From: Candidatus Lindowbacteria bacterium RIFCSPLOWO2_12_FULL_62_27 | Lineage (GTDB): Bacteria > Lindowbacteria > 2-12-FULL-62-27 | Reading direction: 5' to 3' | NCBI GenBank assembly: GCA_001784175.1 | Contig: MFPR01000043.1 | Span: 186,001 to 211,308 of the forward strand | Length of the DNA: 25,308 nt | In this document: positions 7,046-11,338 of the stretch, piece after piece | Position numbering within the stretch: position 1 is the stretch's first letter | How the letters are laid out: each line of letters opens with the position of its first letter | The notes under the pieces: generated by a model | The model's input: the letters and a program-made list of their open reading frames with translations, nothing else | Told to the model about the DNA's origin: nothing | The model's database searches: none | Position numbers and translations under genes: made by a program

Positions 7046-7525
7046 ATGGCCAAAGACAAATTCAAAATCCTGGTGATTCACGGCCCGAACCTGGACCGGC
7101 TCGGCAAACGTGAAAAGAACGTCTACGGCGAAATGACGCTCGAGGAGTTGAACGCGGAAATCGCAGCCGTGGCCGGAAAGCTCGGCGTCAATGTTGAGAC
7201 CTTCCAGAGCAACAAGGAGGGCGAGCTGGTCGCCAAAATCAATACGGCCGGCGAGGCCTTCGATTTTCTCGTCGTCAACCCCGGCGCCTACACCCACGTC
7301 TCCTATGCGATCCACGACGCCATCCGCGCGGCCGACCTGCCGGCCATCGAGGTCCATCTGTCGAACGTGGGCGCGCGGGAGCCGTTCCGGCGCGTGAGCG
7401 TCGTCGCGCCGGCCTGCATCGGGTCCATCGCCGGGTTCGGCGCGTTCTCGTATCTGATGGCCCTCGAAATGGCCATGTCGATGCTGGAGGCCGACACCGA
7501 CTCGGAGGCGGCCGGTCGCGAGTGA
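7046..7525 (+). CDS. aroQ: Type II 3-dehydroquinate dehydratase
   Basis: HGPNLDRLGKRE..VYG, FQSNKEG, NPGAYTH, EVHLSN..AREPFR. Confidence 0.97.
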   Translation: MAKDKFKILVIHGPNLDRLGKREKNVYGEMTLEELNAEIAAVAGKLGVNVETFQSNKEGELVAKINTAGEAFDFLVVNPGAYTHVSYAIHDAIRAADLPAIEVHLSNVGAREPFRRVSVVAPACIGSIAGFGAFSYLMALEMAMSMLEADTDSEAAGRE

Positions 7526-7529
7526 CTGC

Positions 7530-8600
7530 ATGACGAATCCGTCGAGCGCGTTTCAATCAAAATCCGACGCGGCCCTCTTCGTCGACCCGACCAGCCTGCG
7601 ATACCTTACCGGCCTGCGATTTTCCGCGGGCGCGGCGCTGGTGGGCAAATTCGGCAAGGCGCTCCTCGTGGACGGCCGGTATTATTTCAAGGCCCGGCGC
7701 GTTCTGTCTCGCGGCTGGAACGTGCTGAAACTCGCGCCCGGCGCCGCCGAACTTGTGCGGCACATACGGAATCTCGGCGTCCGGCAGGTGTACGTCGACA
7801 CCGAATCCATATCGGCCGCGCGGTACCGCAAACTCGTCGAGTCGGCCGACGGCCTCGCCGTTGCCGGCGCCGAGGGACTGTCGGACCGGATCCGCGCGGT
7901 CAAGCGGCCGGAGGAAATCCGGGCCATCCGCGACGCCGTGCGCCTCACCGACGATCTCTGGTCCCGCGTCCGCACGCACATCCGGGTCGGCATGACCGAA
8001 CGCGAGCTTCGCGCGTTCATCATCGAACAGGCGATCCGGATGGGCGCGGAGGAGATGTCCTTCGAGCCGATCGTGGTGAGCGGCCCGGCGACGGCGGAAC
8101 CGCACGCCGAAGCGGGCGACCGGCCGATCCGGGGCGACGAGCCGCTCATGGTCGACATGGGCGTCCGGCTCAACGGGTACTGCTCCGATTTCACGCGCAC
8201 GCCCTTCCTCCTGCGCCGCCGGGCCGCGCCGCCCGCATGGTTTGTCCGGTTTTACCGCGAGGTGCTGGCGATTCAAAATCTGGCGTATCGTTTGATCGCG
8301 GGCGGCGAACGGGCGCCCGGCGCGGTCGCAAAAAAAATATCCGCACGGCTTCAAAAAAGGCGTCTTAAGACTTATTATCTCCACAGCCTGGGCCACGGGG
8401 TCGGCTTGAAAATTCACGAGGAGCCTTACCTCACGGAAAAGGGCCGGACGCTGGAAAACGGAATGGTCTTCACCGTCGAGCCCGGGCTCTACCGCGCCGG
8501 TTCCGGCGGGGTTCGCATTGAGGACATGGCGTGCCTCCTGCAGGGCCGGCTCGACGTTCTGACCCGGAGCACAAAGGAAATGGTTTGGAGGATATCCTGA
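7530..8600 (+). CDS. Xaa-Pro aminopeptidase/dipeptidase (M24B)
   Basis: LRYLTG and VDGRY in the N-domain. Metal ligands in VDMG, YCSDFTRT, HSLGHGVG, TVEPG and GVRIED. Usual position between aroQ and efp. Confidence 0.93.
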   Translation: MTNPSSAFQSKSDAALFVDPTSLRYLTGLRFSAGAALVGKFGKALLVDGRYYFKARRVLSRGWNVLKLAPGAAELVRHIRNLGVRQVYVDTESISAARYRKLVESADGLAVAGAEGLSDRIRAVKRPEEIRAIRDAVRLTDDLWSRVRTHIRVGMTERELRAFIIEQAIRMGAEEMSFEPIVVSGPATAEPHAEAGDRPIRGDEPLMVDMGVRLNGYCSDFTRTPFLLRRRAAPPAWFVRFYREVLAIQNLAYRLIAGGERAPGAVAKKISARLQKRRLKTYYLHSLGHGVGLKIHEEPYLTEKGRTLENGMVFTVEPGLYRAGSGGVRIEDMACLLQGRLDVLTRSTKEMVWRIS

Positions 8601-9163
8601 TGGCGCAAATTGGTCCCAACGAATTCAAGAACGGCATTACTATTCAGTACGAGCACCGCCTCTGCACGATCCTGGAGTTTCAGCACGTCAAAATGCAGAT
8701 GCGGGCGCCGACGATCAAGACCCGCCTGCGCGACATCAAGACCGGCCAGGTCCTCGAAATCAATTTCCGGCAGGGAGACAAGTTCGAGCAGGTCTACATG
8801 GAGACACGCAAAATGCAGTTCATGTACGCGACGGACGACTCGCTCGTGTTTCTCGATCTCAAGGATTACGAGGAGAAGAACGTCCCGAAGACGCTGGCGG
8901 GGGAAGCGGCGAACTTCATTCCGGAAAGCGCCGAAATCTCCGTGAATTTCCTTGAAGGCAATCCCCTCACCGTGGAACTGCCGGCCGCGATGACGCTCAC
9001 CATCAAGGCCTCCGAGGCCGGCGTCAAGGGCGACCGGGTGAGCGGCGCGACGAAACTGGCGACGCTCGAAACCGGCCACCAGCTCCAGGTCCCCGTCTTC
9101 ATCCAGCCCGGCGACCGCATCCGCGTCGACACCCGGTCGGGAGAGTACATCGGCAAGGAATGA
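8600..9163 (+). CDS. efp: Translation elongation factor P with atypical loop (KMQMR)
   Basis: FKNG, FQHVK, MQFMY, VELP, GVKGD, KLATLETG, VPVFI, IRVDTRSGEY. ATG 8600 overlaps the upstream TGA. Confidence 0.96.
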   Translation: MAQIGPNEFKNGITIQYEHRLCTILEFQHVKMQMRAPTIKTRLRDIKTGQVLEINFRQGDKFEQVYMETRKMQFMYATDDSLVFLDLKDYEEKNVPKTLAGEAANFIPESAEISVNFLEGNPLTVELPAAMTLTIKASEAGVKGDRVSGATKLATLETGHQLQVPVFIQPGDRIRVDTRSGEYIGKE

Positions 9164-9582
9164 AACTCTCCGACGTTCGTGACCTCCTCGACACCGCCCT
9201 CGATATTCTGGGCGACTCGGCCGGTCGCGTGGAACTTGCGGACGGCCGCCGCCGTGTGCGGATCGGCCGGGTCAGCGCCTCCGGCGCCCCAAGTGCCGAC
9301 GCCGTCTCCGGTCCCGAGGGAATGCGCGCGCCGCCGGAAGGCATCACCATCCGCGCGCCGGCCATTGGCGTGATCAGCCTGCGGGACAACCGCACCGACC
9401 GGCCGCTCGTCGAGCTTGGTCAGACGGTCACGCAGGGCCAGACGCTGGCGTTCATCAGTTCGATGGAGATCACGACCAAGGTGACGGCGCCGGCGGCGGG
9501 CGTGGTGGAGGAAGTTCTGGTGGATGACGGCGACGGCGTCGAATTCAACGCGCCCCTGTTGAAAATCATCCCGAGTGTTTAA
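9160..9582 (+). CDS. accB: Biotin carboxyl carrier protein-like protein lacking the biotinylated lysine
   Basis: AccB-type N-terminus, linker and biotinyl-domain pattern (RAPAIG...VELGQTV..GQTL...APAAGVVEEVLVDDGDGVEFNAPLLKI). Lies between efp and accC. The EAMK motif is replaced by SSME. Confidence 0.85.
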   Translation: MKLSDVRDLLDTALDILGDSAGRVELADGRRRVRIGRVSASGAPSADAVSGPEGMRAPPEGITIRAPAIGVISLRDNRTDRPLVELGQTVTQGQTLAFISSMEITTKVTAPAAGVVEEVLVDDGDGVEFNAPLLKIIPSV

Positions 9583-10957
9583 CAAGATCCTCATCGCCAA
9601 CCGCGGCGAAATCGCGCTGCGGGTCATCCGCGCCTGCCAGGAACTCGGCGTTTCGACGGTGGCCGTCCATTCGACCGCCGACGCCGACACCGTGCCCGTC
9701 TCGGTGGCCGACGAGAGTGTCTGCATCGGGCCGCCGCAGGTCACCAAAAGCTACTTGAACATGCACGCCATCCTGACCGCCGCAAAACTCACGGGCGCCG
9801 AGGCGATCCATCCCGGATACGGATTCCTCGCCGAAAACGAAACCTTCGCGCGGCTCGTCCGAAACAGCGGGCTCGTCTTCATCGGACCCAGCGCCGACCA
9901 TATCGCGCGGATGGGCCAGAAGGCGGAGGCGCGAAAAACGATGAAGGAGGCCGGACTGCCGATCCTGCCGGGCAGCGCCGACATGGTAAAGGACGGGGAC
10001 GAGGCGAAACGGATCGCGGCCGACATCGGATATCCGGTCCTGCTGAAAGCCGCCTACGGCGGCGGCGGCCGCGGGATGCGCGTGGTCGCGAAGGAGGAGG
10101 ACCTCGGCCCGGCCTTCGCGCAGGCGGCGGCCGAAGCGATGAACGCGTTCGGGGACGGCAGTCTCTACTTGGAGAAATTCATCGAGCGGCCCCATCACAT
10201 CGAAATCCAGATATTGGCCGACCAGCGCGGCGGGGTCGTGCATCTCGGCGAGCGCGAGTGTTCCATCCAGCGGCGGCACCAGAAGCTGATCGAGGAGTCG
10301 CCGTCGCCCTTTCTGGCCCGCGACCGCGCCCTGCAGATATGCGAAACGGTCCGGCAGGCCATCGCGCGGATCGGATACGAGGGCGCGGGCACGGTGGAAT
10401 TGATCGTGGACGAGAACCGCCGGTTTTATTTCATGGAAATGAACACGCGCCTCCAGGTCGAGCATCCCATCACCGAGGAAATCACCGGGATCGACATCGT
10501 CAAGGAACAAATCCGCATCGCGTCCGGTCAGCCCCTCCGGTTCCGGCAGGACGACGTGACCTTCCGTGGTCATTCCATCGAGTGCCGGGCCCTCGCGGAG
10601 GACGCAACGCTCGATTTCCGGCCCTGCACCGGGACCATCCAGAACCTGCATTTCGGGCTGGGACCCGGTATCCGCGTCGAAACGCACATCTATTCCGGAT
10701 ACCAGATCCCCGCCACCTACGACTCGCTCCTTGCCAAATTCATCAGCTGGGGGCTCACCCGCGCCGAATCGATCTCACGCATGCGCCGCGCCATCCGCGA
10801 AACCGTGATCGAAGGTCTTCCCACCACGCTCCCGTGGCACTCCCAGGTCCTCGTCGAACCCGATTTCGTCCGCGGCACCTACACCACCCACTACGTAGCC
10901 GAACACCGCCGCCTGCAGGACCCCGCGCCGGCCACCGGCGCCGGCTCAGGCTCTTAA
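9575..10957 (+). CDS. accC: Biotin carboxylase (acetyl-CoA carboxylase BC subunit)
   Basis: KILIANRGEIA, IHPGYGFLAEN, KAAYGGGGRGM, ERECSIQRRHQK, EMNTRLQVEHP, IECR, YDSLLAK. Confidence 0.97.
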   Translation: MFNKILIANRGEIALRVIRACQELGVSTVAVHSTADADTVPVSVADESVCIGPPQVTKSYLNMHAILTAAKLTGAEAIHPGYGFLAENETFARLVRNSGLVFIGPSADHIARMGQKAEARKTMKEAGLPILPGSADMVKDGDEAKRIAADIGYPVLLKAAYGGGGRGMRVVAKEEDLGPAFAQAAAEAMNAFGDGSLYLEKFIERPHHIEIQILADQRGGVVHLGERECSIQRRHQKLIEESPSPFLARDRALQICETVRQAIARIGYEGAGTVELIVDENRRFYFMEMNTRLQVEHPITEEITGIDIVKEQIRIASGQPLRFRQDDVTFRGHSIECRALAEDATLDFRPCTGTIQNLHFGLGPGIRVETHIYSGYQIPATYDSLLAKFISWGLTRAESISRMRRAIRETVIEGLPTTLPWHSQVLVEPDFVRGTYTTHYVAEHRRLQDPAPATGAGSGS

Positions 10958-11338
10958 TACTTTCAGCGCGCGCTTGATGTCCGATACGCGGATGATCAGA
11001 ACGCCCTTTTTCTCCCGGAGGCCCACCGTACCGTAGGCGTACTCGATATTGATCCGCGCGCGGGACAGCCGTTCGGCCAGGTCCTCCAGGGCGCCCCGGC
11101 GGTTCGAAAGTTCCAGCACCAGGACCTCGGATTCGACGACCAACTGGCCGGCCGATTCCAGAATGTCCATGGCCTTGTCGGGGTTCGACACCATCAGCCG
11201 AACGACCGCGTGATCGACCGTGTCCGAAACGGTCATGCCGAGGATGTCAATCTCGTGGTCGGCCAGATCGGACGACAGCTTGGCCAGCACCCCCGGCGCG
11301 TTCTTTAAAAAGACGGAAAGCTGCTTGCGGACTTGCAT
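10946..11338 (-). CDS. Tandem ACT-domain protein
   Basis: KQLSVFLKNAPGVLA in the first repeat; NRRGAL..LAERLSRARINIEYAY in the second. Confidence 0.9.
   Translation of the reverse strand: MQVRKQLSVFLKNAPGVLAKLSSDLADHEIDILGMTVSDTVDHAVVRLMVSNPDKAMDILESAGQLVVESEVLVLELSNRRGALEDLAERLSRARINIEYAYGTVGLREKKGVLIIRVSDIKRALKVLRA

What the first reader, a model, noticed from the sequence alone, without database searches (positions are those of the whole stretch)
9160..10957. AccB without its biotin lysine, translationally coupled to an intact biotin carboxylase
Seen: the hairpin reads LAFISSMEITTKV where BCCPs have LCIVEAMKMMNQI. The biotinylated Lys is Glu (GAG at 9466-9468, E103), and the flanking EA and MN residues have also changed, which argues against a single read error. 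The rest of the domain, the AccB-type N-terminus and the overlaps with efp and accC are preserved. AccC retains its ATP-grasp and catalytic motifs (GGGGRG, HQK, EMNTRLQVE, ECR). Known: BirA needs the MK lysine, and non-biotinylated BCCP homologues (BADC) regulate plant plastid ACCase. Inference: this is either a bacterial BADC-like regulatory/scaffold subunit, with a true BCCP encoded elsewhere, or a repurposed carrier whose exposed Glu is the substrate of the adjacent ATP-grasp enzyme, i.e. a biotin-independent system. This is the best candidate for new biology in the window.
Basis: partly seen in the sequence, partly recalled or inferred. Interest (0 to 1): 0.8.

Follow-up and report, generated by a model that had tools for sequence, protein, structure and literature searches.

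The report
Biotin-less carrier twin beside accC
The gene in the usual place of the biotin carrier of acetyl-CoA carboxylase encodes a well-conserved copy that cannot carry biotin, while a second, unlinked gene supplies the real carrier, so the two jobs of one familiar protein seem to be split between two.

Summary
ORF 9160-9582 is a BCCP-like protein with Glu103 (GAG 9466-9468) where the biotinyl-lysine should be. It overlaps efp by 4 nt and an intact accC by 8 nt. It is neither a read error nor decay. An identical contig occurs in other runs. All 15 aligned family members and all 4 genomes of this small phylum have Glu or Asp there, and dN/dS is 0.17-0.34.

The genome also has a canonical EAMKVMN BCCP on another contig, plus birA, accA-like and accD-like genes and no second stand-alone accC.

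New here: in 17 bacterial families with two BCCPs, the accC/efp-linked copy keeps the residues predicted to dock on AccC (V69, E128, F/Y129). It has lost the thumb and MKMMNE motifs, and in 6 families the lysine as well. The unlinked copy shows the reverse pattern.

Best reading: an anchor or scaffold subunit, with the second BCCP as the swinging carrier. This is inferred and has not been tested at the bench.

This scan has noted lysine-less accB copies in other genomes before. None turned up in the literature I could search.

The parts
8600..9163 (+). efp (elongation factor P), first gene of the coupled run. Its stop overlaps the accB* start (ATGA).
   Evidence: TIGR00038 scores 198.9 bits against a cut-off of 185.8. 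Sequence.
9160..9582 (+). accB* : lysine-less BCCP paralogue, 140 aa
9160..9270 (+). N-terminal helix plus two strands (residues 1-37), the BCCP-type alpha/beta/beta motif
   Evidence: The AF2 model has H3-17, E22-27 and E32-37. L10, A13, L14, L17, G18, G22-V24, R32-R34, G36 and R37 are invariant in 15 sequences. In E. coli BCCP this motif is modelled as an oligomerising beta-barrel (PMC11160672, passages).
9271..9339 (+). Variable Ala/Pro/Ser/Gly-rich linker (residues 38-60)
   Evidence: pLDDT is 45-64. The columns are poorly conserved and gapped.
9340..9579 (+). Biotinyl-type barrel-sandwich domain (residues 61-140) without the lysine
   Evidence: pLDDT is 95-98. Foldseek finds 1BDO at TM 0.91 by target and 4HR7_D at 0.91.
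9466..9468 (+). GAG = Glu103 at the hairpin tip, in the place of the biotinyl-lysine
   Evidence: Strands 95-101 and 104-109 flank residues 102-103. The alignment to E. coli BCCP is ungapped. The codon is GAG, GAG, GAC and GAC in the four genomes.
9478..9480 (+). AAG = Lys107, invariant in the family, four residues after the tip
   Evidence: Invariant in 15 of 15 sequences. It lies inside strand 104-109 of the model. Its role is unknown.
9541..9552 (+). E128-F129-N130-A131, with I69 the core of the predicted AccC-docking surface
   Evidence: These give the lowest-error contacts. V69, E128 and the aromatic at 129 are kept in accC/efp-linked copies (17/17, 16/17, 17/17 families). They are lost in unlinked copies (2/17, 4/17, 1/17).
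9575..10957 (+). accC, biotin carboxylase, intact
   Evidence: TIGR00514 scores 644.2 against 626.5. Pfam finds Biotin_carb_N, CPSase_L_D2 and Biotin_carb_C. Invariant columns are kept.

Best explanation
accB* encodes a non-biotinylatable paralogue of the biotin carboxyl carrier protein that is made together with AccC and acts as a non-catalytic partner of it. It keeps the N-terminal helix/two-strand motif through which BCCPs oligomerise. It also keeps the face of the C-terminal domain that parks on the helix 64-73 region of biotin carboxylase, away from the active site. It has lost what a carrier needs: the lysine, the MKMMNE hairpin and the thumb consensus. The carrier is a second BCCP on contig C17. 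That copy keeps the lysine, hairpin and thumb but has lost the parking residues. I infer a division of labour. AccB* is the fixed anchor or scaffold on AccC, and co-oligomerisation of the two N-terminal motifs tethers the mobile carrier. Shown: the sequence features, their conservation, the second BCCP, and the reciprocal pattern across families. Predicted only: the docking on AccC. Inferred: hetero-oligomerisation with the carrier, and the net effect on activity (assembly factor rather than inhibitor).
For: 1. Selection. [ML][ED] replaces MK in 15 of 15 family members and in 4 of 4 genomes of the phylum. pepP-efp-accB*-accC synteny holds in all four. dN/dS is 0.17-0.34, against 0.27-0.38 for the canonical BCCP. 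8 of the 9 listed strain differences inside accB* fall at third codon positions (my arithmetic).
2. Complete biotin-dependent set elsewhere in the genome. There is a canonical BCCP (TIGR00531 112.2 bits, EAMKVMN) on C17, with orthologues in G001 and G002 at 60-61% identity. birA scores 151.8 bits. There are two carboxyltransferase genes. Only accC and a 1168-aa pyruvate-carboxylase-sized frame carry a biotin carboxylase C-domain.
3. Fold. E103 sits at the hairpin tip and K107 is mid-strand. 1BDO and 4HR7 are the best structural matches.
4. Docking. The complex model scores 0.68 against a best control of 0.00 in 3 controls. The mark was reached by 116 of 157 solved complexes and by 2 of 215 mismatched pairs. 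The runs agree in 100% of contacts and partner pLDDT is at least 72. The interface is AccC 34, 49-53, 64-65, 67-69, 72 with AccB* 68-71, 101-102, 104, 126, 128-131. A like complex (4HR7) is solved, so this pass may rest on likeness. In 4HR7, BCCP binds the BC helix aa 64-73 (bioRxiv 10.64898/2025.12.30.697075, passage).
5. Reciprocal loss in 17 families with context-defined pairs. Linked copies against unlinked copies: V69 17/17 vs 2/17, E128 16/17 vs 4/17, aromatic at 129 17/17 vs 1/17, Lys 11/17 vs 17/17, N106 2/17 vs 17/17, thumb P78 3/17 vs 16/17. All 20 reference BCCPs with a canonical hairpin keep every one of these except V69 and E128, which 19 of 20 keep. Over the 9 interface columns, linked copies match the canonical consensus at 0.80 and unlinked copies at 0.56. 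Over the 32 other conserved columns the figures are 0.48 and 0.71 (column permutation p = 0.0007).
6. Precedent. In E. coli ACC tubes, BCCP is seen fixed at this non-catalytic BC site, and its N-terminal motif is modelled as a tethering barrel (PMC11160672, passages). A BCCP-derived eight-stranded barrel links BC dimers in Chloroflexus BC1 (PMC11077971, abstract).
Against: No expression or protein data were available. The docking model may simply recall 4HR7 and says nothing about affinity. 11 of the 17 paired families were found among 32 genomes that I chose for a low best BCCP score and at least two hits. That choice could enrich for odd carriers. In the 7 paired families that occur in the unselected 41-genome sample (some represented by sister genomes, and including family f9, labelled without gene context) the trend is weaker: interface 0.75 vs 0.62, elsewhere 0.42 vs 0.71. 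The window protein has I69, not V69. The canonical BCCP was not found in G003, which is 81% complete. The invariant K107 and the strictly acidic residue 103 are not explained by a pure anchor role. For plant BADCs, the field has not settled whether they activate or inhibit (PMC11926652 and PMC12706156, passages).
Confidence: 0.55

Rival explanations
1. AccB* is a competitive inhibitor, as in the original BADC model. It occupies BCCP sites on AccC or in BCCP oligomers and lowers ACC activity. Its ratio to the true carrier sets flux into fatty acid synthesis.
For: It has the same features as above: BCCP fold, no lysine, predicted AccC docking. The carrier gene is unlinked, so the ratio of the two could be regulated. 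Plant BADCs were first described as inhibitors (PMC12706156, passages).
Against: accB* is overlapped with accC and efp, so it is probably made in fixed proportion with AccC, which is odd for a regulator. The predicted site is the non-catalytic parking site, not the active site. The carrier has lost the residues of that site, so the two would not compete for it.
Confidence: 0.17
2. AccB* has left ACC altogether. It would be kept for its N-terminal domain, for example as an autoregulator of the operon as described for E. coli AccB (recalled), or as a partner of another protein.
For: The N-terminal motif is the most invariant stretch outside the barrel domain. In family f9 a small lysine-less copy lies away from accC, between unrelated genes.
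Against: The C-terminal domain is the best-conserved part, and its docking residues are kept in 17 of 17 linked copies. Linkage to accC is conserved across the phylum.
Confidence: 0.07
3. AccB* is an alternative carrier. Either K107 is biotinylated or lipoylated, or Glu/Asp103 is activated by AccC, so that AccB* carries a group without biotin.
For: The strictly acidic residue at 103 and the invariant K107 (15 of 15) have no explanation so far. AccC is an ATP-grasp enzyme.
Against: K107 is mid-strand. Lysine-less counterparts in other families have G, N, D or E at the site and no lysine at +4. AccC keeps all columns invariant among biotin carboxylases. The genome has a normal carrier and birA. 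The model does not place the hairpin in the AccC active site.
Confidence: 0.03
4. It is an artefact or a decaying pseudogene.
For: None found.
Against: An identical contig occurs in other runs, and a strain variant keeps the codon. The frame is intact in 4 genomes and 15 sequences. dN/dS is 0.17-0.34.
Confidence: 0.01

Closest known systems
Plant and algal BADC proteins (biotin/lipoyl attachment domain-containing, Arabidopsis BADC1-3)
   Same: They are BCCP homologues that lack the biotinylation motif and are not biotinylated. They associate with biotin carboxylase and BCCP, and are proposed either to glue the BC-BCCP subcomplex together or to inhibit it (PMC11926652 and PMC12706156, passages).
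   Different: AccB* is bacterial and sits in the ancestral efp-accB-accC slot, translationally overlapped with accC. It keeps the short bacterial N-terminal motif. Common descent with plant BADCs was not tested and is unlikely given at least 4 separate lysine losses among bacteria. The plant literature calls BADCs unique to the plant enzyme (PMC11926652, abstract).
Bacterial AccB / BCCP of heteromeric acetyl-CoA carboxylase (E. coli AccB; PDB 1BDO, 4HR7; TIGR00531)
   Same: Same three-part build (N-terminal motif, linker, barrel-sandwich domain with a thumb-length insertion), same gene position, and the same predicted non-catalytic docking site on biotin carboxylase.
   Different: It has no biotinyl-lysine, SSMEITT in place of EAMKMMN, the thumb consensus SPxxxP[FY] replaced by RDNRTxRP, and a score of 46.9 against the 115.2 cut-off.
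Lysine-less accB copies noted earlier in this scan (Limnocylindria, Elusimicrobia and others)
   Same: Same phenomenon: a conserved lysine-less BCCP in or near the accB slot. In my own sample I saw it in families f13 (ALGI), f15, f28, f111 and f159.
   Different: This is a different lineage, a phylum of 4 genomes in the collection. The replacement is different (Glu/Asp) and there is an invariant Lys at +4. No look-alike of this protein is in the scan's index.

Membership tests
BCCP / AccB (TIGR00531, functional carrier) | Biotinyl-lysine in the (E)AMKM hairpin | tested here: not met
   E103 lies opposite E. coli's biotinyl-Lys in an ungapped alignment and at the hairpin tip of the model. The site is E or D in 15 of 15 sequences.
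BCCP / AccB (TIGR00531, functional carrier) | Score over the curated equivalog cut-off | tested here: not met
   46.9 bits against 115.2.
BCCP / AccB (TIGR00531, functional carrier) | Biotinyl-domain fold with a thumb-length insertion, plus the N-terminal motif | tested here: met
   1BDO TM 0.91 by target. No gap against E. coli over the thumb. H3-17, E22-27 and E32-37 in the model. The thumb consensus residues themselves are changed.
BADC-like non-catalytic BCCP homologue (by function) | BCCP homologue that cannot be biotinylated, with a true BCCP in the same genome | tested here: met
   Actual lack of biotin on the protein is not testable with these tools.
BADC-like non-catalytic BCCP homologue (by function) | Binds biotin carboxylase | tested here: inconclusive
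   The model scores 0.68 against a best control of 0.00. This is a prediction and may rest on likeness to 4HR7.
Plant BADC family (by descent) | Orthology with Arabidopsis BADC1-3 | not tested
Bacterial lysine losses need at least 4 changes on the tree.
Biotin carboxylase AccC (TIGR00514), for the neighbour gene | Score over the equivalog cut-off, three domains, catalytic columns | tested here: met
   644.2 against 626.5. Three Pfam domains. K116, K158, H208, E210, K237, E275, E288, N290, R292, E296 and R338 are invariant in 16 sequences. Their catalytic roles are recalled from E. coli work.

The most novel reading that the evidence does not exclude
Many bacteria run a two-BCCP acetyl-CoA carboxylase. 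The two states of the single E. coli BCCP are parked on biotin carboxylase and swinging between active sites. Here they are assigned to two old paralogues: an accC-linked anchor that can afford to lose its lysine (it has done so at least 4 times) and an unlinked carrier that has lost the parking surface. One ancient origin of the anchor type is not rejected (AU p = 0.27). If true, the non-catalytic BC-BCCP contact seen in 4HR7 and in the E. coli tubes is a selected, separable function, and these natural split systems are the tool to study it.
Probability: 0.4. Interest if true: 0.75.

Novelty: new variant of a known kind. Interest (0 to 1): 0.62.

Why it matters
Non-biotinylated BCCP look-alikes are treated as a plant invention, and their role as glue or brake is still argued. 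This is a bacterial counterpart, fixed in a whole phylum and recurring in unrelated families. It has a simple genetic layout and a reciprocal pattern of losses that shows which surface each copy needs. That makes the purpose of the non-catalytic BCCP site on biotin carboxylase directly testable with four or five recombinant proteins. It also flags an annotation error: public records name these proteins as ordinary carrier subunits (P0013). Metabolic reconstructions that count this gene as the carrier would mislabel it and could overlook the real carrier, which scores just under the BCCP equivalog cut-off (112.2 against 115.2).

Tried and rejected
Read error was rejected. Neutral decay was rejected.

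K107 as a shifted biotinylation site was rejected on the model, where it is mid-strand, and on the ungapped alignment. It has not been tested chemically.

A recent duplication of the genome's own carrier was rejected. AccB* never groups with its own genome's carrier, and its clade sits on a stem of 3.2 changes per column.

Both trees are short (82 and 65 columns). Long branches meet, so no order of events is claimed.

The representatives search found only one full-length 50% cluster and one fragment of the Glu/Asp family among the best 150 proteins. 167 of 186 domains there carry Lys. It gave no wider family.

The TIGR00531 scan of 301 genomes listed only the best 150 matches, so it could not be used to count lysine-less copies.

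The Atlas look-up added nothing.

No RNA holder was listed by the look-up of sequencing runs, so nothing can be said about expression.

Literature: searches found no paper describing a lysine-less BCCP in bacteria. One search returned only unrelated hits.

Not held, and so not seen: Salie et al. 2016 (PMC5059801), Broussard et al. 2013 (PMC3965354) and Conrado et al. 2024 (10.1098/rstb.2023.0353). The last, on the evolution of ACC regulatory subunits, may bear on the novelty claim. No supplements were read.

My first labelling of copies used the aromatic residue itself. I redid the counts with labels from gene context, leaving out family f9.
Full report
**1. What is in the window**

Between 7046 and 10957 the + strand carries a tight run of genes:
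- a 159-aa ORF at 7046-7525;
- a 356-aa ORF at 7530-8600, which I read as a Xaa-Pro aminopeptidase (not scanned);
- efp at 8600-9163;
- the 140-aa ORF in question at 9160-9582, here called accB*;
- accC at 9575-10957.

The efp stop and the accB* start share ATGA. The accC GTG start lies 8 nt inside accB*.

accB* matches Pfam Biotin_lipoyl at 55.2 bits. It reaches only 46.9 bits on the BCCP equivalog TIGR00531, whose cut-off is 115.2. AccC passes its equivalog at 644.2 against 626.5.

The hairpin reads LAFISSMEITTKV. HMMER aligns residues 59-135 to E. coli BCCP without a gap, which puts E103 (GAG 9466-9468) opposite the biotinyl-lysine.

An AlphaFold2 model built on 16 sequences has mean pLDDT 82.7, and 95-98 in the C-terminal domain. 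It places M102 and E103 in the turn between strands 95-101 and 104-109, with K107 inside the second strand. Foldseek's best matches are 1BDO and the BCCP chains of 4HR7, at TM 0.91 by target.

**2. The replacement is real and under selection**

- Contigs of other public runs reproduce 9269-9612 without a difference (X4/X5, possibly one data set filed twice).
- A strain variant in run X8, from another study, differs at 9 listed places inside accB*. Eight of these are third codon positions by my count, and none is at 9466-9468.
- The protein database holds 14 full-length relatives at 52-64% identity. All carry [ML][ED] in place of MK, and all keep K107.
- The phylum as held in the genome collection has 4 genomes in one family and 4 genera. 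All 4 have the gene, in the same gene order.
- Pairwise dN/dS is 0.17-0.34 with dS near saturation. That is similar to the canonical BCCP of the same genomes at 0.27-0.38, whose frames for G001 and G002 were not trimmed to start codons. It is higher than efp at 0.04-0.15 and accC at 0.09-0.15.

**3. The rest of the genome**

The assembly is 94% complete. It holds the following.
- A 158-aa BCCP with VCVIEAMKVMNEI and a normal thumb on contig C17 (TIGR00531 112.2 bits). It lies between ORFs that I read as an HflX-like GTPase and an HtrA-like protease (not scanned).
- Orthologues of that BCCP with the same neighbours in G001 and G002. It was not found in G003, which is 81% complete.
- birA.
- Two carboxyltransferase-type genes.
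- A 1168-aa frame with its own biotin carboxylase and biotinyl domains, of pyruvate carboxylase size.

AccC is the only stand-alone biotin carboxylase. It keeps the columns that are invariant in 16 biotin carboxylases. So a normal biotin-dependent acetyl-CoA carboxylase can be assembled without accB* as the carrier. Nothing calls for a biotin-independent chemistry.

**4. The wider pattern**

In an unselected sample of 41 genomes, four other families also have a lysine-less small BCCP:
- G015: ALGI;
- G017: SMNV;
- G030: VLGH;
- G011: AMRI.

Each of these genomes has a lysine-bearing BCCP elsewhere.

I then took 32 more genomes with a low best BCCP score and at least two hits. This is a biased choice. 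I read both copies with their neighbours.

Labelling the copies by gene context only, and leaving out family f9 whose small copy is not next to accC or efp, gives 17 families with a pair. Counts of families keeping each feature:

| Feature | accC/efp-linked copy | Unlinked copy |
|---|---|---|
| V69 | 17/17 | 2/17 |
| E128 | 16/17 | 4/17 |
| Aromatic at 129 | 17/17 | 1/17 |
| Lys103 | 11/17 | 17/17 |
| N106 | 2/17 | 17/17 |
| Thumb P78 | 3/17 | 16/17 |
| Y73 | 5/17 | 17/17 |

In family f8 the unlinked copy is the C-terminal part of a roughly 620-aa frame. Twenty BCCPs with a canonical hairpin from other families keep all of these features, except V69 and E128, which 19 of 20 keep.

On a tree built without the hairpin and VE[FY] columns:
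- Linked copies fall into three groups and never join their own genome's carrier.
- Holding all 26 operon-type rows together is not rejected (p-AU 0.27).
- The lysine-less state needs at least 4 changes.

The alignment has only 65 columns and long branches meet, so neither a single origin nor the number of losses is firm.

**5. Docking**

A model of AccC with AccB*, each given as my own alignment, scored 0.68 in the median of three runs (0.69, 0.61, 0.68), against 0.00 for the best of 3 controls. The runs agree in 100% of contacts and partner pLDDT is at least 72. The mark was reached by 116 of 157 solved complexes and by 2 of 215 mismatched pairs.

The interface is AccC 34, 49-53, 64-65, 67-69 and 72 with AccB* 68-71, 101-102, 104, 126 and 128-131. 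This is in the N-terminal domain of AccC, away from the catalytic columns.

A preprint states that in 4HR7 the E. coli BCCP binds the BC helix aa 64-73 (10.64898/2025.12.30.697075, passage). The model therefore reproduces that known non-catalytic site and may do so from memory.

The link to section 4 is independent of that caveat. Over the 9 conserved interface columns, linked copies match the canonical consensus at 0.80 and unlinked copies at 0.56. Over the other 32 conserved columns the figures are 0.48 and 0.71 (column permutation p = 0.0007). The permutation is descriptive, because the families are not independent.

**6. Mechanism proposed**

In E. coli ACC tubes the biotinylated BCCP is seen fixed at this non-catalytic BC site. 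The N-terminal alpha/beta/beta motifs are modelled as a barrel, so that parked BCCPs hold a translocating one in place (PMC11160672, passages). A BCCP-derived eight-stranded barrel also links BC dimers in Chloroflexus BC1 (PMC11077971, abstract).

AccB* keeps exactly the two parts that this picture needs for an anchor: the N-terminal motif and the parking face. The C17 BCCP keeps the N-terminal motif and everything that touches biotin.

I therefore read AccB* as a dedicated anchor or scaffold made with AccC, and the C17 protein as the carrier tethered through mixed N-terminal oligomers. This is inference.

The main rival is a BADC-type competitive inhibitor. It is weakened by the fixed co-translation with AccC and by the carrier's loss of the parking residues.

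The strictly acidic residue 103 and the invariant K107 remain unexplained.

**7. Comparison and novelty**

By function the closest known things are the plant BADC proteins. Recent plant papers call them unique to the plant enzyme and still debate whether they are glue or brake (PMC11926652 abstract and passages; PMC12706156 passages).

My literature searches found no description of a bacterial lysine-less BCCP. Three key papers were not held, including one on the evolution of ACC regulatory subunits.

This scan has noted the phenomenon before on other DNA: five notes covering Limnocylindria, Elusimicrobia and others. None concerns this protein family, and none mentions the reciprocal loss in the carrier.

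I class it as a new variant of a known kind. It is a bacterial, probably independently derived, non-catalytic BCCP, and it comes with a testable anchor/carrier split.

Noticed in passing
window 10946-11338 (-): A 130-aa convergent ORF overlaps the 3' end of accC by 12 nt. By eye it looks like an ACT-domain protein. It was not scanned.
   Followed up: no
P0016, P0043, P0121, P0128 (representatives search): These proteins have several biotinyl-like domains, some of which lack the lysine. P0016 (546 aa) has 4 stretches, 3 without Lys. P0043, P0121 and P0128 (250-281 aa) have D or G at the Lys site of one matched domain, near the N-terminus, and a second matched stretch.
   Followed up: no
L077 (G010), L079 (G170), L028 (G011): In families f8 and f9 the lysine-bearing BCCP with a thumb is the C-terminal part of a 617-629-aa frame. 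Its N-terminal part looks like a PycB/OadA-type carboxyltransferase; that reading rests on a recalled motif and was not scanned. In G011 the small lysine-less copy lies between an HGD-D protein and a methyltransferase, not beside accC.
   Followed up: partly
L048 (G002:C255) and L050 (G002:C303): G002 has two short extra contigs: L048 carries canonical efp-accB-accC, and L050 a canonical BCCP (no accC or efp detected on the contig). These are probably the 6% contamination rather than further copies.
   Followed up: partly
accC/efp-linked BCCPs that keep Lys (e.g. L057, L060, L063, L066, L069): These copies read MKxx[KR][ED] where canonical BCCPs read MKxMNE, and most have a degenerate thumb. 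Whether they are still biotinylated is an open question.
   Followed up: no
window 9160-9582, run X8: Groundwater and soil metagenome runs from five studies hold this stretch. One strain variant differs mostly at third codon positions.
   Followed up: partly
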